IMG/VR virus record: IMGVR_UViG_3300028992_000036
Source of the DNA: a virus
Taxonomy: Duplodnaviria > Heunggongvirae > Uroviricota > Caudoviricetes
Strand: one strand, 5' to 3'
DNA: 64,000 nucleotides
The translations under genes and the position numbers were made by a program. The notes beneath the pieces are model-generated. The model worked only from the letters and a program-made list of their open reading frames with translations, was not told where the DNA came from and did not search any database. Below are positions 9,362 to 59,400 of the stretch, in pieces (position 1 is the stretch's first letter; the number at the start of each line of letters is the position of its first letter).

Positions 9362-10618
9362 CTATCGAGAACCACCAAGAATAACACGGTTTTTGACTGG
9401 ATACCTACGATGTACTGGATAGCCCAATGCGTCTGCACTATGCTCAATGCCACCTGTCTTATCCATATCTCGTGTTCCAGGCTTGTAGATGACTTTTTCC
9501 AGTGAATCAATCAAATGCTTGCACTTCGGATCGATATACAACCGGATATCTCCAGATGCGGTCATCAGCATTCGGTTAACAGCATTAACACGATCCGCAA
9601 TTGGCGGGTGCTTTTTCGAATAATCGACACGTAAGAATCCCTTCTCTTTGAATATGTCGACGTCAGACTCCCCGCGAGCATGTTGGCGATAAGCACCTGC
9701 CGGATCTGGAAATACCGTTATCTGTGATTTCCAGCGCCAGAAGCGTCTCTCAAGCTCATCACAAACCTCTGCCGTGTTAGAGGAAAAGAGCACCAATTCA
9801 TCAATTGCCCATAGCTCACCATTTGGCTGAGGTTGCAAAATTACTGAAGACATCGGGTCAATGTTGAAGTCCTGCCCTACCCATATAGGCAACCGAGGGT
9901 TGAACTGAAGCGGTTTTACATGCACGTTACGATCGAACGGGTAGTAAACGCGCCCGGACATGTTCTCAAAGCTCGCCAGGTACTCCTGAGCGAACGATTT
10001 CGGGTCCATATCGTTCTTAGCAGCTTCAATTTCCGCCGTAGGCACAAACGGAGAATCGGCAGTTACAAACTGCCAGCTCTTCCACTGTCCCTTTCTTTGC
10101 AGCTCTACGTTCTGGCCTATAGTCCACAGTTTGTGAAATTCCGAGAAACCTTTTGGCGTACCAATGATAAGTGCACCGCCGCGTGTCGATGAAAGAGTAG
10201 GTCGTAACACCTTGTACCAGGTGTCAGCCTTCATATCCTGAAATTCATCAAGCACTACAAAATGCAACGCTACGCCGCGCAGAGTGTCAGGCTTATCAGC
10301 ACCTTTGAGGGCGATCTCCGAACCGTTCTTCAACACGATTGTCATCGTGGTGTCGTTCTTTTTCCTAACCCACTTACGAGGCAGAACTTCCTGTAGATCG
10401 TCCCACAAAATCTGGCGAGCCATCTGGTAAGTAGGAGCGACATACCAGACCCTTTGCTTTTTTTCCTTTGCCGCCGCACGAATAATAGTGGAGATCGACA
10501 ACCGGGATTTTCCCCAGCGTCGACCAGCACAAACAACTTTAAATCGATGCGGAGACTGGAAGACTTTCATCTGTCCAGAATGCAGTTGCACAAGACTGAG
10601 CGAGGACGGGATTGCCAT
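9362..10618 (-). CDS. terminase large subunit
   Basis: Walker A VVCAGRRWGKS, Walker B HFVVLDEF, C-terminal nuclease-type region; start overlaps small-subunit stop (TAATG). Confidence 0.8.
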   Translation of the reverse strand: MAIPSSLSLVQLHSGQMKVFQSPHRFKVVCAGRRWGKSRLSISTIIRAAAKEKKQRVWYVAPTYQMARQILWDDLQEVLPRKWVRKKNDTTMTIVLKNGSEIALKGADKPDTLRGVALHFVVLDEFQDMKADTWYKVLRPTLSSTRGGALIIGTPKGFSEFHKLWTIGQNVELQRKGQWKSWQFVTADSPFVPTAEIEAAKNDMDPKSFAQEYLASFENMSGRVYYPFDRNVHVKPLQFNPRLPIWVGQDFNIDPMSSVILQPQPNGELWAIDELVLFSSNTAEVCDELERRFWRWKSQITVFPDPAGAYRQHARGESDVDIFKEKGFLRVDYSKKHPPIADRVNAVNRMLMTASGDIRLYIDPKCKHLIDSLEKVIYKPGTRDMDKTGGIEHSADALGYPVHRRYPVKNRVILGGSR

Positions 10619-11250
10619 TATTCGTCCTCCCCTTCACTTCCATCATCTGTCGCATCAAATTCGCTTAGAGCTTCTTCTTCCAACGTCTCAAGCAATTCGT
10701 CATCGATGATTTCAGGCTCGTCGTCTTCCTGACGTAATTTCGCCACCTGGGAAGGCGTAAGCTCACCAAATACCAGATTCGGAATTTCTTCCTCGTCATT
10801 TTCCGCATGATCCATGCCCAATGCTTTGGACGAAACTTCAAAGCATTTTGCAAGGGTATTACTGGCTCTCTGTAAGCTCTTGAGAGAATCCTCAATCGCC
10901 CCTAAAGGCTTACCCTCACGTTTGGCCGTAGTGACTTCGACCATCACCATCTGCCCCAACGCATACGCCCAGCCGTCATAACGTGTACGACGTTCTTCTA
11001 TCTTTTCCGCACGGGCTTTAGCGCGAAGCTCTGCGTCAGATTTAAGAGACTCACGAACCATCTTCCCAACAGAGTCCGCGCCTTTCTCTAATCCTCGCTT
11101 TTTGAAATGTCTGGAGAGTGTTTCACGACGAATGCCGTACTCTTCCTCCAGCTTTGAGAGTGTATATTCGCCTGACGTCCATTTGGCTTCAGCTTCGGCC
11201 CACTCCGCTGGTGTCAGGCGAGTTTTTACCTCGTCTTTTTCGACCGTCAT
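10618..11250 (-). CDS. terminase small subunit, putative
   Basis: 210 aa, N-terminal HTH-like region, acidic C-terminus, directly upstream of and coupled to the large subunit. Confidence 0.5.
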   Translation of the reverse strand: MTVEKDEVKTRLTPAEWAEAEAKWTSGEYTLSKLEEEYGIRRETLSRHFKKRGLEKGADSVGKMVRESLKSDAELRAKARAEKIEERRTRYDGWAYALGQMVMVEVTTAKREGKPLGAIEDSLKSLQRASNTLAKCFEVSSKALGMDHAENDEEEIPNLVFGELTPSQVAKLRQEDDEPEIIDDELLETLEEEALSEFDATDDGSEGEDE

Positions 11251-11366
11251 AGATCCCTCTAAAACACACAGAGCGCGTCCATGCGCTCTAAAACAACTTG
11301 TTTACTGCATTTTCTAACCAACTTGTTTTCTGGGTTGTTTAATTAGGTCTGGGCATGTCTTATTAA

Positions 11367-11422
11367 GCCTGCTTCCGTATATATTTAATAAGTTACTTAT
11401 TATTTATATATACAGAAGCAGG
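11367..11422. repeat. 56-bp palindromic element (17-18-bp arms, AT-rich loop), copy 1 of 2
   Basis: GCCTGCTTCCGTATATAT ... ATATATACAGAAGCAGG; near-identical copy at 36864-36922 with the same single arm mismatch. Confidence 0.55.
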
Positions 11423-11446
11423 TCTTTAAATAAGCTCCCAGACCGA

Positions 11447-11713
11447 TTACATCACCAGTAACTTCGCTTTGGCTCGACCTAAAGTGGTTAACCCAAGAGT
11501 TCGGCGGTGATAGCGATTGTCACTGCGTTGGCGCGTATGCCCTTTCTCCACAAGCCCCTTTTTTATCAGAGCGCGAATTGAGAACTGGATACTTTGCTTG
11601 GTTGTCTTGTACGGCAAAACTTCAAGCAATTCGTCCAGATCAAGTAGATAACCTCGCTCATAACCGAGATTGAGCGTTTTGATGATGTCCTTTTGTTTAT
11701 CGGTTAACGTCAT
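11447..11713 (-). CDS. small winged-helix DNA-binding protein, putative regulator
   Basis: 88 aa; AAGGA RBS 8 nt upstream; helix-turn-helix-like segment; basic C-terminus. Confidence 0.4.
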   Translation of the reverse strand: MTLTDKQKDIIKTLNLGYERGYLLDLDELLEVLPYKTTKQSIQFSIRALIKKGLVEKGHTRQRSDNRYHRRTLGLTTLGRAKAKLLVM

Positions 11714-19084: not shown

Positions 19085-19315
19085 ATGTTTGTTCTTATCG
19101 CTGGCGTTAACGTCCATAATGAATATTATGTTAATCGCATCGCTGGGATCGCTGGTTACGCTGGGCGCGCAGTCGAGCTTATAGATGAAACGACGCGCAA
19201 AATTGACTTATTGAGCGACCAGGAGCGAAAAAAAGCAGACGTGAACGACGCTGATATATTTTTAATGTTAAAAGCGTTTGTAGAAATGGGATTTAAAATC
19301 AGTTTACACAAATAA
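19085..19315 (+). CDS. small hypothetical protein
   Basis: 76 aa; AAGGAG RBS 7 nt upstream. Confidence 0.4.
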   Translation: MFVLIAGVNVHNEYYVNRIAGIAGYAGRAVELIDETTRKIDLLSDQERKKADVNDADIFLMLKAFVEMGFKISLHK

Positions 19316-19320
19316 AATCG

Positions 19321-19346
19321 AGCGCCCACTATGGGCGCTTTTTTTC
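19321..19346 (+). terminator. Rho-independent terminator
   Basis: AGCGCCCACTATGGGCGCT hairpin + TTTTTTT; same hairpin (no T-run) at 18819-18839. Confidence 0.6.
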
Positions 19347-19367
19347 GTTTCCAATACACCTACCATA

Positions 19368-20414: not shown

Positions 20415-20764
20415 GATTAATTCCTTATCGTAAATAACAAATTGTTTTCTTGTTGGTGTTAATTATCGTTGTACGAATAAGGCGTCAAAGTGGAAAGTTG
20501 CGGTAGCCGGACGGGAACAGGTGGGTTTGTCGGTTGCCTGGAGGTAAGAGGTTGGTGTTATTAGCCTGAGGGAAACAGGATGGTCATTTAAGACCACCAA
20601 TGCTGGTGGCCTTAATAATTATCGCCCGATTACGCTAAGGATCTTTTCCTCAACTGATTTGTTGTTGCGACTAAACTGCCTTGCGTATCTGATGACAGAA
20701 GAGGCGTTTTGCTTTCTGACCATCTCGGCTCTTTCCTTCAGGCGTTTCTTGAAATCGCCCATAT

Positions 20765-21139
20765 TTACCACCAGGCGCAGAAGGTCAGTCTGTTATTGTG
20801 AAAGTCGTGGTTCTTAATCAGATCTTCCACAAGCTCTTTCAACTGCCCCACATCATGCCAGTAACCTTCGTCGTACTCCTGACTGCCGAAGAAAAAACCT
20901 TCCCGAGTAGGCAAGTACTCTTCGCAATTGCTTTCGTTTATGTGCATCAAATGAGCTTTCAGAAGACAAATGTCATTCATCGTTAATTCTAAAAGCTCAC
21001 AATTTTCGACTTCACCTACGTTGCGCTCCATCCACCCAACGAGCGCATTGAACTTACGGAAGTAAGCAACCTGCTTTCTGGATGCCTCGTTATTCAGATC
21101 GTTTTTAGGCTGTGTCTCGATATAGATATCAAGTCCCAT
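20765..21139 (-). CDS. small acidic hypothetical early protein
   Basis: ATG 21139 with AAGGAAA RBS; motif A core at 21196-21210. Confidence 0.5.
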   Translation of the reverse strand: MGLDIYIETQPKNDLNNEASRKQVAYFRKFNALVGWMERNVGEVENCELLELTMNDICLLKAHLMHINESNCEEYLPTREGFFFGSQEYDEGYWHDVGQLKELVEDLIKNHDFHNNRLTFCAWW

Positions 21140-25964: not shown

Positions 25965-26165
25965 GGGCAAATCCAATGGTTTGCTATGTGACACCGTAAT
26001 CACGCAGCTTTTCTTCCCTCCCCTGACTCCCCCATACTCCGTTTCTGTACCCAATTGAGTCCGAGATTGTATGGTGCTCGAAACAGATATTTGGTAGACA
26101 CTCAGAGTCATGCTGTGTAACGAGGGTAGGGCTACTAACTGTCGTCTTATACAATTTGGTGAGTT

Positions 26166-26414
26166 TCAGCATTTTACCACCCCGTTCGGAAACAACTCAT
26201 TCGCCGTAGTTGATATAACCTCCCAATTAACGCCGACATCAGCGTTATGGCATTGTCTGATTTTTTGCATCACCTGTACGCATTGTTCATCAGTGAGATC
26301 TGTCCTTACTTCAGCAATATCTTCTTTGTGCCACATAACCATGAGTAAGGGTTCGTCTTCTGGATAGTTTTTCAGTTTCTCGATGATTTCTTTTGCTGTT
26401 CCAAACATCTTCAT
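26166..26414 (-). CDS. small acidic hypothetical protein with two upstream motif-A copies
   Basis: 82 aa; GGAG RBS; motif A at 26419-26453 and 26467-26486 links it to the phage-like early genes. Confidence 0.45.
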   Translation of the reverse strand: MKMFGTAKEIIEKLKNYPEDEPLLMVMWHKEDIAEVRTDLTDEQCVQVMQKIRQCHNADVGVNWEVISTTANELFPNGVVKC

Positions 26415-26520
26415 CTCCTAAACAATTTGTTTTCTTATATGACTTATTATCTCAATCAACAAAAGGTAGAAAACAAATTGTTTTAGAGTTTGTTAAAGTC
26501 AGAAGGGGTTGTGTCTATAT

Positions 26521-26567: not shown

Positions 26568-28601
26568 TTACTTAACCTGGTGGCCAGGTTTAGCACCAGC
26601 ATCCGGGCTTAACAGGAAGATATCTTTCCCGCCGGGGCCAGCAGCCATCACCATGCCTTCAGAGATACCGAAGCGCATTTTACGTGGTGCCAGGTTAGCC
26701 ACCATAATGGTGTGACGACCAATCAGTGCCTGTGGATCTGGATAAGCGGAACGGATGCCTGAGAAGACATTACGCTTTTCACCACCGAGATCCAGCGTCA
26801 GGCGAAGCAGTTTGTCAGAACCTTCTACAAACTCTGCGTTTTCAATCAGCGCCACGCGCAGGTCAACTTTGGCGAAGTCGTCAAAGGTGATAGTTTCCTG
26901 AATCGGGTCGTCAGCCAGTGGGCCAGTTACCGGTGCGGCTGTGGCTTTCACTTCTTCTTTGGATGCTTCCACCAGTGCTTCAACCTGCTTCATATCGATG
27001 CGGTTATACAGTGCCTTGAACGGATTCACTTTATGGCCCAGCAGCGGTTGCTGGATACCATCCCAGGTCAGTTCTGTATTCAGGAATGCTTCTGCACGTT
27101 CAGTCAGTTTCGGCAGTACCGGTTTCAGGTACGTCATCAGCACGCGGAACAGGTTAATGCCCATAGAGCAAATCGCCTGCAGATCGGCATCGCGTCCTTC
27201 CTGCTTTGCCACCACCCACGGAGCCTGTTCATCAACATAGCGGTTAGCCAGGTCAGCCAGTGCCATGATTTCACGGATAGCTTTGCCAAATTCGCGGCTT
27301 TCCCATGCTTCGCCAATCACTTCAGCGGCATCAGTAAAGGTTTTGTACAGTTGCGGGTCAGCCAGTTCGCTTGCCAGCACGCCGTCAAAACGCTTGTTGA
27401 TAAAGCCTGCATTACGGGAGGCCAGGTTAACCACTTTGTTAACGATATCGGCATTCACACGCTGAACGAAATCTTCCAGGTTGAGATCGATATCATCAAT
27501 GCGCGAAGAGAGTTTCGCAGTGTAGTAGTAACGCAGGCTGTCGGCGTCAAAATGATTCAGCCAGGTGCTGGCTTTAATAAAGGTGCCGCGAGACTTGGAC
27601 ATCTTCGCGCCGTTCACCGTCACATAGCCGTGAACAAACAGGTTGGTCGGCTTGCGGAAGTTGCTGCCTTCCAGCATGGCAGGCCAGAACAGGCTGTGGA
27701 AGTAAACGATATCTTTGCCGATGAAGTGGTACAGCTCGGCGGTGGAGTCTTTCTTCCAGTATTCGTCGAAGCTGGTAGTGTCGCCGCGTTTGTCGCACAG
27801 ATTCTTGAAGGAACCCATGTAGCCAATCGGCGCGTCCAGCCAGACGTAGAAGTATTTGCCCGGTGCGTTCGGAATTTCAAAACCGAAGTAAGGTGCGTCA
27901 CGGGAGATATCCCACTGTTGCAGGCCAGATTCAAACCACTCCTGCATTTTGTTTGCCACCTGCTCCTGCAACGCACCGCTGCGGGTCCATGCCTGCAACA
28001 TTTCGCTGAAAGAAGGCAGATCAAAGAAGAAGTGTTCGGAATCACGCATTACCGGTGTAGCGCCAGAAACCACTGATTTCGGCTCGATCAGTTCCGTCGG
28101 GCTGTATGTCGCGCCGCAGACTTCACAGTTATCGCCGTATTGATCCGGCGCTTTACATTTCGGGCATGTGCCTTTTACAAAACGGTCCGGCAGGAACATG
28201 CCTTTTTCCGGGTCGTACAGCTGAGAGATGGTGCGGTTTTTAATAAAACCGTTCTCTTTCAGGCGAGTATAGATAAGCTCGGACAACTGACGGTTCTCTT
28301 CGCTGTGCGTCGAGTGATAGTTGTCATAGCTGATGTTAAAGCCTGCGAAATCAGTCTGATGTTCCTGACTCATTTCGCCAATCATCTGTTCCGGTGTGAT
28401 ACCAAGCTGCTGTGCTTTCAGCATGATTGGCGTACCGTGGGCATCGTCGGCACAGATGAAATTAACCTCGTGGCCGCGCATTCGCTGGTAACGAACCCAG
28501 ACATCAGCCTGGATGTGCTCCAGCATATGGCCGAGGTGGATTGAGCCGTTAGCGTACGGCAGCGCGCACGTCACCAGAATTTTCTTCGCGACTTGGGTCA
28601 T
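26568..28601 (-). CDS. metG: methionyl-tRNA synthetase
   Basis: Protein from [29 protein letters not shown]... with class I HIGH motif (HLGH) and KMSKS; 677 aa; track ORF over-extended by 43 codons. Confidence 0.95.
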
Positions 28602-28758
28602 AGTAGGCATTACTTCTTTGTAGTGAAAAGGGGCTTGATAGTAACAAAATGGCCTTATGTCTGCCATGTGATAACAGCATTTCTCATAAATGATTAAATG
28701 TCGTAGCTGGAGTACACTACAAGGCGACAATTGCGCAAATTAAAATAAAGGAGACGGG

Positions 28759-36527: not shown

Positions 36528-36758
36528 TCATTGTGATTGATTATTTTCTCTACCATGTAGTTGAACATTCAAGGCAAACACCTCATTGATCAACTCACCT
36601 AAAAGCTGTTCAACAAGTTCGCGATGCTCGCCAAGATGCAAGCACTTAATTGCCCATTCGTACAAGTTGAAAGCCTGCTCACGATCTTTCATCATTTCAC
36701 GAGCCTGGGCCAGAAAATCGCTCTCTACGAGCGCAACGACATTAGTCGGGTATGACAT
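36528..36758 (-). CDS. small hypothetical protein
   Basis: 76 aa from ATG 36758 with AAGGA RBS. Confidence 0.4.
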   Translation of the reverse strand: MSYPTNVVALVESDFLAQAREMMKDREQAFNLYEWAIKCLHLGEHRELVEQLLGELINEVFALNVQLHGRENNQSQ

Positions 36759-36863
36759 GTTGGTTTCCTTAAAGTGGTTCATAAAATCGATTTTAAAGCG
36801 TCTGGGAAGGGGTTCTAGTGGATTCTGTTGTGATGTTCAGGTCTGGAGTCTCTGATACAAAAC

Positions 36864-36922
36864 AGCCTGCTTCCGTATATTAATAATTAATATGTAGTTA
36901 TTTATATATACAGAAGCAGGCT
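36864..36922. repeat. palindromic element, copy 2 of 2
   Basis: AGCCTGCTTCCGTATAT ... ATATATACAGAAGCAGGCT; same arms and same mismatch as copy 1. Confidence 0.55.
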
Positions 36923-36943
36923 AATTACAGACGCCAGAACAAA

Positions 36944-37537
36944 CTAAGCAGCCTTCTTTGATGGTCTTTTTTTCCTGATCACATTCGCAGGATCATACCC
37001 TCCCAGACTTTTCATGACGTCCAAAGGGATCTTGCTTATAGAGTGCCCAGCGTCCTGACAGAATCCTCGAAAAACAACGAGCATACTGCCACCTGGGTTG
37101 ATGTTTACTTCTACCTGACCCAGATTTACGTCAGGCTCGACAAACGCTACGCGGCCACCAGACAGAATAATCGTCTCATTCGCACACTCTGTTGCACGCT
37201 CATACCACTTTGTATCTAGGGATTGAGGAATTAGCATCACTGTTGTAACTCCGCGAGCCTGCTCACGTATAGCCGCATCAATCCAGGGGTAGATTTTGGA
37301 GTAGGGTGGATTGAGGAAGGCAATTGTACCTGGCTGTCCCCATTCAGATTTCAAAGCATCACGCTCAACGCCTATGAAATTAGGCAGCTTTGCATTGTCC
37401 TTGTTGCAGGCAACGTCAACATCAAATGTCACTCCAAGATAACGTTGAATGGCAGAAAACAGCCAGTCAGGTGTTCTCCAGAGGTCACGAAGAGAGTTGT
37501 CACGCTTTCGCTGTTTGATTTTTTCGGCTGCAATCAT
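36944..37537 (-). CDS. phage-type Dam-family N6-adenine DNA methyltransferase
   Basis: NPPYS motif in a short ~197-aa protein typical of small phage Dam-like methylases; motif B immediately upstream. Confidence 0.7.
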   Translation of the reverse strand: MIAAEKIKQRKRDNSLRDLWRTPDWLFSAIQRYLGVTFDVDVACNKDNAKLPNFIGVERDALKSEWGQPGTIAFLNPPYSKIYPWIDAAIREQARGVTTVMLIPQSLDTKWYERATECANETIILSGGRVAFVEPDVNLGQVEVNINPGGSMLVVFRGFCQDAGHSISKIPLDVMKSLGGYDPANVIRKKRPSKKAA

Positions 37538-38530: not shown

Positions 38531-38688
38531 GTAAGTCTCCTTCTGTTTGGTTACATTTGCGTTTCGATGGCTGCATTTTGACTAAACCTATCAGGCGGAA
38601 AAGTATTAAATACAGGCAGAAAATGATTGAAAGGCGACTGTTCTTTAAAAAAAAGCCTACTTTAAACTTTTTAAAGTAGGCTTTTGTT

Positions 38689-39246
38689 TTACACAATTTC
38701 AGAGGGTAATTTAAAAAATCCGTACTTATTACGTGCCTTAAAGAAGCATTGCATCATTAAGTTTGTGTCATATAAGGCACTATGTGCTTTGGCATGATCG
38801 TATATAAAGCCAAGAGAGAAGGCCAACTCTTCAAGGCGGGGACGTTTACCGTCTTCTGTGGCCCACAATCCCGATAACATAGTATCTATAACAGGAACTT
38901 CTGGCAGTCTTACTCCATACCCTGAAAACTCGTGTCGAATAAATGGTATATCAAATGCTTCGCCGTTATGAGCAACCCACACACTACATGCCCCCATATA
39001 AGCGCCAATTTCGCTGGCATGATTTGACAACAAAGGTTCAGCTGCGAGCTGTTCCAATGAAATGCCATGAACGGCTTGAGCTTTCGGATCTATGTTTCTG
39101 CGAGGGTTAAAACGCATCTCCAGACTATCAATATGTCTCTGTGTCTCCAGTTCATAGCGGGTAATTGCGATTTCAATAATTTTATGACCAGCAAGGAAAT
39201 CCAGTCCCGTAGACTCGATATCGATGCCTGCAACAATCGTTGTCAT
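38689..39246 (-). CDS. DnaQ-like 3'-5' exonuclease (DEDDh)
   Basis: Exo I GIDIESTG, Exo III HSALYD; AAGGAG RBS. Confidence 0.7.
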   Translation of the reverse strand: MTTIVAGIDIESTGLDFLAGHKIIEIAITRYELETQRHIDSLEMRFNPRRNIDPKAQAVHGISLEQLAAEPLLSNHASEIGAYMGACSVWVAHNGEAFDIPFIRHEFSGYGVRLPEVPVIDTMLSGLWATEDGKRPRLEELAFSLGFIYDHAKAHSALYDTNLMMQCFFKARNKYGFFKLPSEIV

Positions 39247-55783: not shown

Positions 55784-56289
<506 letters not shown>

Positions 56290-56480
56290 TGGCTCGGTCA
56301 CGGCGAACTGCCGTTCAAGGTAGTTAGGGATAGCAACATGTTCATGACCACCACGTTTATACCGGTGAGTCGGCTGCTGACAGCTGACCAGCCCCAGCTC
56401 CTTGGCAATTTGACGTCCTTTCAGGCCTGGTGACCCACCTAATAACTCTGAGACTGCCTTCAGCAAACCATCACTCCTTT

Positions 56481-59400
56481 CTACCTACCCACCATTCGTT
56501 GCATACTTTGCGTCCACGAGGCTTTAAATGCTGAATCTCCTGCGAACAACTTGTAGAGCTCAAGTTCATCTTTACGGCGTTGCAGCATGATTTCCTTGAG
56601 CATTTTTTCGAAGGCCAAATTTCGATTATGGGGATCTGGGTTGTTTTTGTATTTCGATTCGAAGTCAGGGTGATTGCGGATACTTTCAGCGATGTTCACG
56701 AACTTAACCTTTTGCTCTTCAGGTGTGGCACTCCAGCCCTGGAACCATCGCTCATTAAATGTGCGAATGATTTCATCCAGCGGGTCAGTTTCTTTTTCAC
56801 CGCCATGCACCCCACGTGGGTTCGGATTTTGAGGATCAAGCTCCGCTTCTTGGTCACTAAGTTTAATGCTGTGGTTAAGCTTCACACGTTGCAAACCGTA
56901 TGAACTCAGATCGACAGAATCGAGAAGCTCATCAATAGCATCAGCATCGGGATCTTCCACTTTCAATTTCGGTATTAAAAACTTCAGGAACCAAAACAGT
57001 TTTTCCCAGCTGACCATTTCATAAGGCATGATAGAAGCCATCTGCCCATAGATTTTAACGAACTGTTTGGCTTTAATCTTAAAGTCCACTTTAGCTTCAG
57101 CTTCAAGATCTAGTTCATGGTCAAACCGCGCTGCGGCAATATCAATGATTGGACTGAGTGTTTGGGCGTCTTCATTCTTGAAATAACGCGTCACAAAGTC
57201 TTCAACTTCATACCACTCGTACACACCGACATCGTCCATTTCATCTTTCAACTCGTGCAGTACGTTTATATCTGTAGCTTGGGACAATGACGTTGCTGTA
57301 TAGAAAGGATCGAATGCTGATTGAATATCTTCAACCGAGTTGAAAAAATCCAGGATAAACAAGTCTTCTGTTTTCTTCCCTAGCTTAGGTGCACTGCGAT
57401 TGAGCCTAGATAGCGCCTGAACACACAAGACACTGGCGAGCTTCTTATCTACATACATGGCGCAAAGCTTAGGCTGGTCAAACCCAGTCAGATACTTGTT
57501 AGCAACCACTAAAAGTCGATACTCATCGGTATCAAACATATCTTTGGTATCTGACTCGGCAAAACCATTAATATCTGCTTCGGTATATTCAATACCATCA
57601 ACTTCTTTGGTTCCTGAGAAAGCAATGGCAACTTTAAACGGGTTTCCTTGCTCCTCAAGTATTCGCCTTATCGCTTTGTAGTATCGAATGGCCGCCTCAA
57701 TATTTTGAGTGACCACCATTCCTTTACCTTTACCTTTGAGCTTTTTCGTATTCACGACATGCGGAACAAAATGCTCCAGCATAATCTCTGCCTTGATATC
57801 AATTGTTTGCTGGCTTCGTTCTACATAAGCTCTGAGTTTTTTCTGCGCCTTTTTGGTATCAAACTCAGGGTTATCAGCAATTGATTTCTCAATCTCATAA
57901 TAACTTTTGTACGTCGTATAATTTGCCAGCACATCCAAGATGAAGCCTTCTTCAATGGCTTGTTTCATCGAATACAAGTGAAACGGCTTGTAAGAGCCAT
58001 CTTCTTGGCGTTGACCAAATTTCTCCAAAGTGCTGTTTTTTGGTGTCGCTGTAAATGCCAGGTACGACGCATTCCCGCGCATCTTACGCGATCTCATCGC
58101 CTGAAGGATTTTATCCTGAGCATCTTCTGCCTCTTCGACTTCAGACTTGCCCATCGCTCGGTTCATATTGTCATGCGCCGAACCAGACTGTGAGCTGTGT
58201 GCTTCATCGATGATCACTGCAAAGCGCTTGTCACTAAGATCGGCGATACCATCAATAATGAACGGGAATTTCTGAATCGTCGTTATAATAATCTTTTTGC
58301 CATTCTCCAGCGCCTGCTTAAGCTCAGAAGACTTATTCGCTGGGGCAATAATGTTCTTTACTTCAGAAAACTCTTTAATGTTATCCCGCAGCTGCTTGTC
58401 CAATAGGCGTCTATCGGTGACCACAATCACAGAGTCAAACAACGGCTGCTCCAAGCTTTTTCCGCCTGCCACATCAGACGAAGCAGGATAGGTTTCAATT
58501 AGCTGATAAGCTGCCCAGGTAATCGAGTTAGACTTACCTGAACCGGCTGAGTGTTGAATTAAGTAAGTCTGACCGACACCGTGCTGGGCGGCATGGTCTA
58601 CTAATTTTCTCACCACATCCAATTGATGGTATCGAGGAAAGAACAGGGTTCGCTTGGGTAATGGATCTTTGCTTGACCCATCCAGACGCACAAAATGCTG
58701 AATAATATTCGCCAAGCTGTCTTTAGTGAATACTTCTTGCCATAGGTATGCCGTTTTATGGCCAGATGGATTCGGCGGGTTGCCTTGTCCAAGATTGTGA
58801 CCTTTATTGAACGGCAAGAAGAATGTACTGCTACCTGATAACTTGGTGGTCATATACACTTCGTCGGTATCGACCGCCATATGCACTAGGCAGCGGCCAA
58901 AGGTCAGCAATGGCTGAGTTGCATCCCGATCATCTCGATACTGCTTTTGGCCGTGATAACGTGCTGTTTGCCCGGTCCATGCGTTCTTCAACTCCAGCGT
59001 TATCAAGGGTATTCCGTTGATAAACAATACCATGTCGATTTCTTGTAGGGGATTTACCATGGAATAGCGCACTTGGCGAGTACAACTAAACACGTTATCT
59101 GCAAAGTTTTGCTTTACCTTCTCACTACTACTTGCCAAAGGGGCTGGATAGAGCAAATTGAAATGAGCATCGTCTACGCTTAGCCCTTTCTTAAGTAAAT
59201 GAAGAATGCCATGCTTCTTAATCAGTCGGTCAAATCGTTCGAGTAACTTACGTTGCCAATCTGAGGGGTTGTTCTTTTGCAGTTTGGCCAACTCTACTTC
59301 TTGTGTCTTTTGCAGAAATTGCCAGAAAAAACGTTCATCAATGGCATATTGCATATTAAAGTCACTAGCAGCACCAATGAAGTATCCAGCACCCAGTGAC

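What the first reader, a model, noticed from the sequence alone, without database searches (positions are those of the whole stretch)
11367..11422. Two copies of a long palindromic element sharing the same arm mismatch
The 17-18-bp arms GCCTGCTTCCGTATATAT / ATATATACAGAAGCAGG around an AT-rich loop occur at 11367-11422 and again at 36864-36922, each just downstream of a gene end. Both copies carry the identical C/T mismatch, so this is a conserved functional element rather than a chance hairpin. Candidates are a protein-binding site, a processing site or a recombination or packaging signal.
Basis: seen in the sequence. Interest (0 to 1): 0.6.

Follow-up and report, generated by a model that had tools for sequence, protein, structure and literature searches.

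The report
Conserved palindromic terminator-like hairpins in phage-plasmid
The two palindromes are real copies of a conserved hairpin element that sits at the operon boundaries of SSU5-like phage-plasmids and most likely stops transcription running from one gene module into the next; it is a useful regulatory landmark, not a new kind of system.

Summary
The window is an E. coli SSU5-like phage-plasmid. Both palindromes are at the stated coordinates, far beyond chance, and each is the core of a ~100-bp imperfect palindrome. The complete relative Cyrano carries three copies: before terS (A), after the Dam methylase (B) and after the parA operon (C, outside this window). About 800 plasmids from eight enterobacterial genera carry the element.

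Best reading: hairpin terminators/insulators at module boundaries. Each copy starts within a few bases of the upstream stop codon on the transcribed strand. Copies B and C carry a U-tract on that strand only. Published RNA-seq of Cyrano shows a 20- to 1000-fold drop across copy C. A sister clade has a diverged palindrome plus U8 at site A. Copy A lacks a U-tract and shows only a 2-4-fold drop.

The shared "mismatch" is a G·U wobble on the transcribed strand. It is polymorphic among relatives (C-G, U-G, U-A, C·A), so it is not itself a conserved feature. Copies exchange sequence by gene conversion.

The arm sequence is conserved more strictly than a plain terminator needs. A trans-acting factor (centromere-like, roadblock or antiterminator target) is not excluded. 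A cos site, a telomere-resolution site and a known RNA family are rejected.

The parts
11343..11448 (-). Copy A, whole extended imperfect palindrome (about 100 bp), between the 88-aa ORF and terS
   Evidence: nhmmer profile hit 11343-11448, E = 4e-28; inverted repeat I1 with arms 11346-11384 / 11406-11444; fold -38.7 kcal/mol, z = -9.2
11368..11422 (-). Copy A core: arms CCTGCTTCTGTATATAT / ATATATACGGAAGCAGG (as read on the - strand) around a self-complementary AT-rich centre; no U-tract follows it
   Evidence: 0 of 38 unique type-A variants have at least 5 T in the 9 nt after the stem on the sense strand
36838..36943 (-). Copy B, whole extended element, between the Dam methylase gene and an 84-aa ORF
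   Evidence: nhmmer hit 36838-36943, E = 2e-20; fold -30.6 kcal/mol, z = -5.2
36864..36922 (-). Copy B core, with stem extended by AG/CU
   Evidence: I5
36855..36863 (-). U-rich tail of copy B on the transcribed strand (GUUUUGUAU, directly after the stem)
   Evidence: 20 of 27 unique type-B variants have at least 5 T in 9 nt on the sense strand, against 0 of 27 on the antisense strand
11346..11353 (.). Outer box GGTCTGGG of copy A; its inverted partner CCCAGACC is at 11437-11444
   Evidence: the box recurs in most variants but the spacers do not covary
36840..36848 (.). Outer box GGTCTGGAG of copy B; its inverted partner CCAGAAC is at 36934-36940
11447..11713 (-). 88-aa ORF (SSU5_130 / CYRAN_123 homologue), last gene of the ParB_N-ParB_N-ABC operon; its stop codon abuts copy A
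10618..11250 (-). terS-like DNA-binding protein, first gene of the late operon, 117 nt downstream of the copy A core
36944..37537 (-). Dam-family adenine methyltransferase gene; its stop codon lies 21-23 nt before copy B
36528..36782 (-). 84-aa ORF (CYRAN_80 homologue), first gene downstream of copy B
11259..11290 (-). Separate small GC hairpin plus U-rich tail (AGAGCGC-ATGGAC-GCGCUCU GUGUGUUUUAG) immediately before the terS ribosome-binding site; a possible second stop or attenuator at site A
   Evidence: -13 kcal/mol, z = -2.3; conserved in SSU5 and in the K. oxytoca clade

Best explanation
The two palindromes are copies A and B of a family-specific hairpin module. Complete relatives carry three copies, at the boundaries between co-directional gene modules of SSU5-like phage-plasmids: ParB-like operon | late operon (A); nucleotide-metabolism/Dam block | next block (B); parA partition operon plus cargo | helicase-primase replication module (C).

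Transcribed from the - strand of this window, each copy folds into a long hairpin. The base is a 17-19-bp stem, extended by AU pairs.

At B and C a U-rich tract follows the stem, so the module works as a factor-independent terminator. It insulates lytic modules from operons that are transcribed in the plasmid state.

Copy A has the hairpin but no U-tract. It is leaky, and is backed up by a second small hairpin with a U-tract just before terS.

The shared C/T 'mismatch' is a neutral G·U wobble on the RNA strand. Copies are kept alike by gene conversion and by some sequence-level constraint on the arms.

Shown: anatomy, position, strand-specific U-tracts, conservation, and the transcript drop across copy C in a relative.
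Inferred: that the drop is termination at the hairpin, and that copies A and B behave in the same way.
For: 1. Position and strand. In Cyrano all three copies begin 0-2 nt after the upstream stop codon and score best on the gene strand. The same holds for both window copies.

2. Strand-specific U-tract, maintained although the flanks differ. Counting at least 5 T in the 9 nt after the stem among unique variants: sense B 20/27 and C 27/31; antisense B 0/27 and C 11/31.

3. Experiment in a relative that is 98-99% identical to the window over the regions compared. In the LF82/Cyrano RNA-seq table, log2(FPKM+5) is 5.7-10.4 for CYRAN_30 and 2.3-4.2 for CYRAN_31 in all 10 samples. That is roughly a 20- to 1000-fold drop across a 193-bp gap (PMC9928086 supplementary file). 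The element is the only strong structure in that gap (-45.5 kcal/mol, z = -8.4) and the scan finds no other terminator there. At site A the drop is only about 2-4-fold (CYRAN_123 against CYRAN_1), which matches the missing U-tract.

4. Homologous sites in the K. oxytoca/michiganensis clade (TerS 61% identical). Site A is a diverged palindrome followed by U8. Site C contains a nested canonical terminator.

5. The parA-C29 operon always lies upstream of copy C in the same orientation, with 0-2 variable cargo genes inserted before the element.

6. Pair position 9 runs C-G, U-G, U-A. Sense-strand wobbles outnumber C·A mismatches 36 to 11 among 59 unique cores.
Against: - Copy A has no U-tract in any of 38 variants.
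- Neither window copy is called by the simple terminator scan; the stems and loops are longer than its definition allows.
- Covariation is almost absent. Most arm positions never vary, the RNAalifold covariation term is -0.13, and only one pair shows compensatory change. The hairpin is therefore supported by symmetry and energy, not by covariation.
- The outer flanks do not covary: self against cross duplex energy is -12.2 against -12.0 kcal/mol, p = 0.88.
- In one lineage of copy B the mismatches fall on the sense strand (C·A, U·C).
- The arms are identical at sites whose interiors differ, and the core is as conserved as first and second codon positions. A plain terminator does not need this.
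- The RNA-seq evidence is per gene, from a relative, and for copy C, which lies outside this window. It cannot separate termination from a protein roadblock or from processing followed by decay.
Confidence: 0.55

Rival explanations
1. The arms are a sequence-specific target of a plasmid- or phage-encoded factor, and that is the primary function. Possible forms are dispersed centromere sites for the ParA/119-aa-partner system (as in the N15 prophage), a transcription roadblock, or a hairpin recognised by an antiterminator or RNA-binding protein that opens the three 'gates' on induction.
For: - The arm sequence is invariant at most positions in 59 unique cores and is shared by sites whose interiors differ.
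- The core is as conserved as first and second codon positions while neighbouring third positions vary.
- All three sites in the K. oxytoca clade carry the same altered arm (TATCCAGAGCAAGG-type), and there the ParA partner protein is only about 50% identical.
- Copy C lies directly downstream of the parA operon, in some genomes 34 nt after the partner gene.
- No repeat array that could serve as a centromere is seen upstream of parA.
- The layout is two kinds of inverted boxes around an AT-rich centre that matches the IHF consensus at 7 of 9 positions by eye. From memory, this resembles P1 parS.
Against: - No binding protein is identified. The 119-aa partner has no recognisable domain.
- The strand-specific U-tracts and the tight placement after stop codons are not predicted by a DNA-binding site.
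- Sixty-two Yersinia pMT1-type plasmids keep copy A but lack the ParA partner.
- The ParB_N genes beside copy A are at background in the plasmid state.
- The concerted change between clades can also come from gene conversion, which is directly seen: cores of A and C are identical in three genomes.
Confidence: 0.2
2. A selfish or merely recombinogenic palindromic repeat (REP/ERIC/MITE-like). It spread to three intergenic sites, persists through gene conversion, marks recombination breakpoints, and has no dedicated function.
For: - It is a multi-copy extragenic imperfect palindrome.
- Cores at different sites are identical in some genomes, and the same doubly substituted arm (CCTGCGTCTG) appears in inverted position at another site.
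- The left flank of copy C is a boundary where variable cargo begins.
- Many assemblies break at the element.
Against: - The sites are syntenic and fixed across eight genera, with no presence/absence polymorphism among close relatives in the loci examined.
- There are only three sites per 108 kb, none in coding DNA.
- 1042 of 1044 hits in E. coli complete genomes are on plasmids, so there is essentially no spread to host chromosomes.
- The strand-specific U-tracts point to selection for function.
Confidence: 0.08
3. A promoter module. The AT-rich interior carries TATAAATA, the T4 late-promoter -10 motif (from memory), on the sense strand. It would start transcription of the downstream operon from inside the palindrome, with the arms as activator sites. 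The element would then be a coupled terminator-promoter cassette.
For: - TATAAATA occurs only 3 times in 64 kb, and two of these are in the two elements on the gene strand.
- It is exact on the sense strand in 38 of 59 unique cores, against 11 of 59 on the antisense strand.
- Every copy lies 84-120 nt upstream of the first gene of a module.
- The genome encodes T4-like replication and recombination proteins.
Against: - The motif is not conserved in whole lineages (TATAACTA, TATTAAATA).
- With one mismatch allowed, both strands score alike, 54 against 49, as expected for any AT-rich palindrome.
- No gp55/gp33-like factor is annotated, and I did not search for one.
- No sigma-70-like promoter is found on the gene (-) strand in or next to the window copies.
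- CYRAN_31 is silent in all 10 RNA-seq samples.
Confidence: 0.07
4. A packaging signal (pac or cos) recognised by the terminase small subunit encoded just downstream of copy A.
For: - Copy A lies immediately upstream of terS-terL, the classical position of cos sites.
- The SSU5 and Cyrano GenBank records are linearised inside the loop of copy A.
- Copy A alone lacks the U-tract.
Against: - Two further copies lie about 30 and 47 kb away next to unrelated genes. With cos cutting these would fragment the genome.
- The large terminase is nearest to T4 gp17 and P74-26 TerL, which suggests headful packaging rather than lambda-type cos cutting; that packaging-type reading is from memory.
- Record and contig ends at a repeated palindrome are what assemblers produce, and several IMG/VR contigs also end at copies B and C.
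- The related plasmids are circular records.
- No virion-end data exist. Virome coverage of Cyrano was at contamination level.
Confidence: 0.05

Closest known systems
Rho-independent (intrinsic) transcription terminators
   Same: A stable stem-loop directly after a stop codon on the transcribed strand. Copies B and C have a U-rich tail on that strand only. Transcript level falls steeply across copy C in a relative.
   Different: - The stem is very long (about 25 pairs with an AU-rich upper half).
- The same sequence is used at three sites and conserved across genera.
- There are flanking CCAGAC boxes.
- Copy A has no U-tract.
- The simple terminator scan does not call the window copies.
Bacterial extragenic palindromic repeats (REP/BIME including the IHF-binding RIP type, ERIC/IRU, Neisseria Correia elements); comparison from memory
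   Same: Multi-copy imperfect palindromes of 50-130 bp in transcribed intergenic DNA just after genes. Those elements are reported to attenuate transcription or stabilise the upstream mRNA. The centre here is AT-rich with a partial IHF-like match.
   Different: - The sequence is unrelated.
- There are only three fixed, syntenic sites.
- The element is confined to one phage-plasmid family and essentially absent from host chromosomes.
- There are no signs of transposition.
Dispersed centromere palindromes of the plasmid-prophage N15, and the P1 parS architecture (from memory)
   Same: A few palindromic sites are scattered over a phage-plasmid genome, some next to phage operons. One lies beside the partition operon. 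The layout is two box types in inverted orientation around an AT-rich, possibly bent centre.
   Different: - No similarity to sopC or parS sequences.
- No binding shown.
- The ParB_N genes nearby are silent in the plasmid state.
- The strand-specific U-tracts are unexplained by a centromere.
Mycobacteriophage L5-type 'stoperators' (from memory)
   Same: Repeated sites in short intergenic regions, oriented with transcription, that stop elongation into lytic genes in the lysogen.
   Different: Stoperators are 13-bp asymmetric repressor sites in 20-30 copies. Here there are three 55-100-bp palindromes with hairpin potential and U-tracts. The dispersed 13-bp AAACAANTTGTTT box seen in this window is the closer formal analogue.

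Membership tests
Intrinsic terminator | Stable GC-containing stem-loop in the RNA of the transcribed strand | tested here: met
   - strand folds -38.7 (copy A) and -30.6 (copy B) kcal/mol, z = -9.2 and -5.2; consensus of 14 pairs in 37 variants
Intrinsic terminator | U-rich tract immediately 3' of the stem on the transcribed strand | tested here: inconclusive
   Copy B: GUUUUGUAU, met; 20 of 27 type-B and 27 of 31 type-C variants meet it. Copy A: CUUAAUAAG, not met; 0 of 38 type-A variants meet it
Intrinsic terminator | Lies downstream of a gene in the same orientation | tested here: met
   Stop codons lie 21-24 nt before the cores and 0-5 nt before the outer box
Intrinsic terminator | Transcripts end there (fall in RNA level or a mapped 3' end) | tested here: inconclusive
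   Per-gene RNA-seq of the relative Cyrano shows a 20- to 1000-fold drop across copy C and a 2-4-fold drop across copy A; copy B is uninformative because the upstream gene is silent. No 3'-end mapping exists, and there are no data for this exact genome
Known RNA family (Rfam) | Match to a curated covariance model at its gathering score | tested here: not met
   No hit in the window at gathering thresholds. Around copy A only sub-threshold generic hairpin matches (14 eukaryotic microRNA precursors and the oskar OES element)
cos site (cohesive-end packaging site) | Single site per genome next to the terminase genes | tested here: not met
   Three copies in the complete relative, two in this window
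cos/pac site | Virion DNA ends or terminase cleavage at the site | not testable with these tools
   The only indirect clues are that the SSU5 and Cyrano records are cut in the loop of copy A and that TerL is nearest to T4 gp17 and P74-26 TerL
ParB-parS / dispersed centromere | Sequence bound by the plasmid's centromere-binding protein and required for stability | not testable with these tools
   Copy C is adjacent to parA and its 119-aa partner. The partner has no recognisable domain. Yersinia plasmids keep copy A without the partner
Protelomerase target (telRL of N15-type linear prophages) | Palindrome at the ends of a linear, hairpin-ended plasmid prophage | tested here: not met
   Related replicons are deposited as circular. 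Three internal copies. I did not search for a protelomerase gene
REP/ERIC/MITE-like mobile palindromic repeat | Many copies at variable sites, including host chromosomes, with presence/absence polymorphism | tested here: not met
   Three fixed syntenic sites. 1042 of 1044 places in 5426 E. coli genomes are on plasmids
T4-type late promoter | TATAAATA at -10, conserved, with a gp55-type factor encoded | tested here: inconclusive
   Exact on the sense strand in both window copies and in 38 of 59 cores, but replaced in whole lineages. I did not search for the factor

The most novel reading that the evidence does not exclude
The three hairpins are switchable, sequence-specific 'gates', not passive terminators. 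Their invariant arms would be recognised by a phage-plasmid-encoded factor, either the uncharacterised 119-aa partner of ParA acting at DNA or an RNA-binding antiterminator.

One element would then do two jobs. In the plasmid state it would insulate the lytic modules, and possibly serve as a dispersed centromere as in N15. On induction it would be opened in concert, turning the almost entirely co-directional genome into long read-through transcripts.
Probability: 0.2. Interest if true: 0.7.

Novelty: new member of a known kind. Interest (0 to 1): 0.4.

Why it matters
SSU5-like phage-plasmids are common. The element is found in about 5% of complete E. coli genomes and in hundreds of Klebsiella, Enterobacter and Salmonella plasmids. 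The family includes Yersinia pestis pMT1 and Salmonella Typhi pHCM2 (the Yersinia hits were seen here; naming these two plasmids rests on the literature), and members carry resistance genes such as CTX-M-15.

How these elements keep lytic genes silent while plasmid-maintenance genes stay on is not known. A conserved element at exactly the three module boundaries gives concrete sites to mutate. It marks where cargo genes are inserted, just upstream of copy C. It also explains why assemblies of these replicons break at fixed points.

If the arms prove to be a protein or RNA-factor target, the element would be the handle for the lysogeny-lysis switch or for the partition of this family.

Tried and rejected
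1. Rfam at gathering thresholds over the window, and an E-value search around copy A, gave nothing but sub-threshold generic hairpin matches.

2. A search for further copies in the window, by pattern with mismatches and by nhmmer profile, found only the two. The hit at 57574 is a chance match inside coding DNA.

3. The first IMG/VR scan with a 15-mer was too unspecific. It was replaced by two-arm patterns and by protein-anchored loci.

4. The idea that the G·U wobble always lies on the transcribed strand is rejected as a rule. One type-B lineage has C·A and U·C on the sense strand.

5. The idea that the roughly 100-bp outer stem is a conserved RNA helix is rejected. Own flanks pair no better than swapped flanks (p = 0.88), and the left flank of copy C is variable cargo DNA.

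6. Covariation support for the core helix is essentially absent, because the arms hardly vary.

7. My first crude ORF analysis suggested divergent upstream genes at copy C. The marker-based analysis corrected this: parA and its partner are always upstream and co-oriented.

8. CCCAGAC as a genome-wide motif is not enriched: 7 hits against 4.7 expected.

9. A repeat array upstream of parA as an alternative centromere was not found.

10. Literature searches for the sequence, for SSU5/pHCM2/pMT1 palindromes and for packaging ends found no description of the element. The SSU5 genome announcement is not held.

Full report
**What the window is.** The region around copy 1 is 98.5-99.1% identical to Escherichia phage CMS-2020a and PhiR41_1, 87% to Salmonella phage SSU5 and about 80% to Klebsiella relatives. 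The region around copy 2 behaves the same way. The window is therefore part of an E. coli SSU5-like phage-plasmid of about 108 kb. The genes flanking both palindromes lie on the - strand.

**Check of the observation.**
- The arm 15-mer with up to three mismatches occurs 6 times against 1.4 expected, and no shuffle reaches that.
- The - strand RNA folds at -38.7 and -30.6 kcal/mol (z = -9.2 and -5.2).
- The common 'mismatch' is C:A on the + strand but U·G on the - strand, which is the transcribed one.
- The AT-rich 'loop' is itself mostly self-complementary.
- Each core sits inside a roughly 100-bp imperfect palindrome bounded by GGTCTGG(G) and CCCAGAC(C) boxes.
- A profile built from 31 variants finds only these two copies in the window.

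**Context.**
- Copy A (11368-11422) lies between an 88-aa ORF and terS-terL. The 88-aa ORF closes an operon encoding two ParB_N proteins and ABC-type ATPases.
- Copy B (36866-36920) lies between a Dam-family methylase and an 84-aa ORF.
- The complete relative Cyrano has a third copy, C, after the parA operon and 107 nt before the helicase-primase module.
- In Cyrano all three copies start 0-2 nt after the upstream stop codon and score best on the gene strand.
- The SSU5 and Cyrano GenBank records are both cut open inside the loop of copy A.

**Distribution.**
- The element is found in 800 PLSDB plasmids, mostly 100-115 kb: Klebsiella, Escherichia, Enterobacter, Yersinia, Salmonella, Citrobacter, Cronobacter and Shigella. 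There are one to four copies each.
- It is in 260 of 5426 complete E. coli genomes, and 1042 of 1044 places are on plasmids.
- It matches no Rfam family.
- I found no description of it in the searchable literature.

**Variation.** I collected 225 instances from IMG/VR and assigned them to sites A, B and C by neighbouring marker proteins.
- In 55 unique site-A loci the core is as conserved as first and second codon positions of the flanking genes, while third positions vary.
- Among 59 unique cores most arm positions never change. Only pair 9 varies in a way that mostly keeps pairing: C-G 15, U-G 28, U-A 8, C·A 8.
- RNAalifold gives the expected 14-pair stem but almost no covariation term.
SSU5 has C-G and PhiR41_1 has U-A. 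In some genomes copy A is perfect while copy B has U-G.
- Copies exchange sequence. The whole 55-bp cores of A and C are identical in three genomes, and the doubly substituted arm CCTGCGTCTG appears as the left arm of A and, inverted, as the right arm of B.
- The outer flanks do not covary.

**Evidence for termination.**
- A T-rich run follows the stem on the sense strand in 20 of 27 type-B and 27 of 31 type-C variants, although the flanks differ. On the antisense strand the figures are 0 of 27 and 11 of 31. No type-A variant has a sense-strand run. In this window copy B is followed by GUUUUGUAU and copy A by CUUAAUAAG.
- Published RNA-seq of LF82/Cyrano gives log2(FPKM+5) of 5.7-10.4 for CYRAN_30 and 2.3-4.2 for CYRAN_31 in all ten samples. 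After removing the pseudo-count this is a 20- to 1000-fold drop across the 193-bp gap that holds copy C.
- That gap contains no other predicted terminator, and the element folds at -45.5 kcal/mol.
- Across copy A the drop is about 2-4-fold when the upstream gene is expressed. Copy B cannot be judged because the methylase is silent.
- In the K. oxytoca/michiganensis clade (TerS 61% identical) site A carries a diverged version of the palindrome followed by U8. Sites B and C carry palindromes with altered arms and nested GC hairpins, one of which is a canonical terminator.
- Moellerella and Xenorhabdus relatives have only AT- and U-rich DNA at site A.
- The parA gene and its 119-aa partner always lie upstream of copy C in the same orientation, with zero to two variable cargo genes inserted before the element.

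**What a plain terminator does not explain.**
- The arms are the same at sites whose interiors differ.
- The arms are altered in concert in the sister clade.
- Copy A keeps the hairpin without a U-tract.
- The exact octamer TATAAATA is biased to the sense strand: 38 against 11 of 59 cores, and 2 of only 3 occurrences in the window. It is lost in some lineages.

A sequence-specific factor therefore remains a serious rival or an added layer. Candidates are weak:
- The ParA partner has no recognisable fold.
- Yersinia plasmids keep copy A without the partner.
- The ParB_N genes beside copy A are at background in the plasmid state.

A cos site is contradicted by the three copies and by a T4/P74-26-like TerL. 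The record breaks at copy A are most simply assembly breaks at a repeated palindrome, because IMG/VR contigs also end at the other copies.

**Verdict.** The element is most likely a family-specific terminator/insulator hairpin module: efficient at C, probably efficient at B, and leaky at A, where a second small hairpin with a U-rich tail sits just before terS. It is a new, undescribed member of a known kind. There is a moderate chance that its conserved arms also serve a trans-acting factor.

Noticed in passing
window 11291-11303, 11316-11328, 20435, 21199, 22102, 22587, 23769, 26420, 26471, 30094, 33002, 33716, 34445, 44664 (start positions); also L128 29260-29272 upstream of parA: A dispersed 13-bp palindrome AAACAANTTGTTT gives 19 hits with up to 2 mismatches against 6.4 expected (0 of 100 shuffles). 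In a greedy ORF call, 15 of the 19 hits are intergenic; the one exception among the hits with up to 1 mismatch (22587) overlaps a short ORF that the call dropped. Most lie 9-41 nt upstream of a start codon. It looks like an operator or a 5'-UTR box used genome-wide. A FljA-like (Flag1_repress) protein is encoded in relatives and could be its partner; I did not test this.
   Followed up: partly
window 11259-11290 (- strand): A small GC hairpin with a U-rich tail (AGAGCGC..GCGCUCU GUGUGUUUUAG) ends a few bases before the terS ribosome-binding site. It is conserved in SSU5 and in the K. oxytoca clade with a G-U change. The layout (conserved boxes, then a terminator, then the first late gene) resembles late-operon control by antitermination.
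   Followed up: partly
window 26415-26488: A 21-nt inverted repeat, 90% complementary, whose arms each contain an AAACAA(A/T)TTGTTT box. It lies in the intergenic region between a short + strand ORF (26110-26367) and a long - strand ORF (26568-28667).
   Followed up: no
SSU5 NC_018843.1 ends (L002 5260-5300, L003 1-20); Cyrano OV696614.1 ends: Both deposited linear records start and end inside the loop of copy A (...GTGACTTATTA | AATATATACGGAAGCAGG). This is probably an assembly break at the palindrome, or a re-orientation to match SSU5, but physical ends were never excluded.
   Followed up: partly
IMG/VR loci L145/L240, L155/L080, L151/L248; L180/L074: In three genomes the 55-bp cores of copies A and C are identical although the flanks differ. 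In another genome the same doubly substituted arm sits on opposite sides of copies A and B. This is evidence for gene conversion between palindromes in either orientation.
   Followed up: yes
type-C loci, for example L009, L084, L220 against L119, L225, L252 (upstream of the element): The distance between the ParA partner gene and copy C ranges from 34 nt to about 2 kb, because different cargo genes (DUF2971 protein and others) are inserted just upstream of the element. This makes it an insertion hotspot at the edge of the variable plasmid region.
   Followed up: partly
K. oxytoca pCAV1099-111 (L210-L212): record positions 20676-20775, 56250-56440, 108530-108640: The sister clade has its own version of the element at the same three sites, with arms of the TATCCAGAGCAAGG type. 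Sites B and C share a 50-nt direct repeat and contain nested GC hairpins.
   Followed up: partly
window 38647-38689 and 19310-19350: Canonical-looking terminators elsewhere in the window: A8-GCCTACTTTAAA / TTTAAAGTAGGC-T4 (bidirectional in appearance) and CGAGCGCCCA / TGGGCGC-T7. The genome therefore also uses ordinary terminators.
   Followed up: no
Cyrano RNA-seq table (PMC9928086 supplementary file 2): CYRAN_81, a 44-aa ORF two genes downstream of copy B, is strongly expressed in the lysogen (about 117 against a background of 10), while CYRAN_79/80 are low. This implies a promoter between copy B and CYRAN_81.
   Followed up: no
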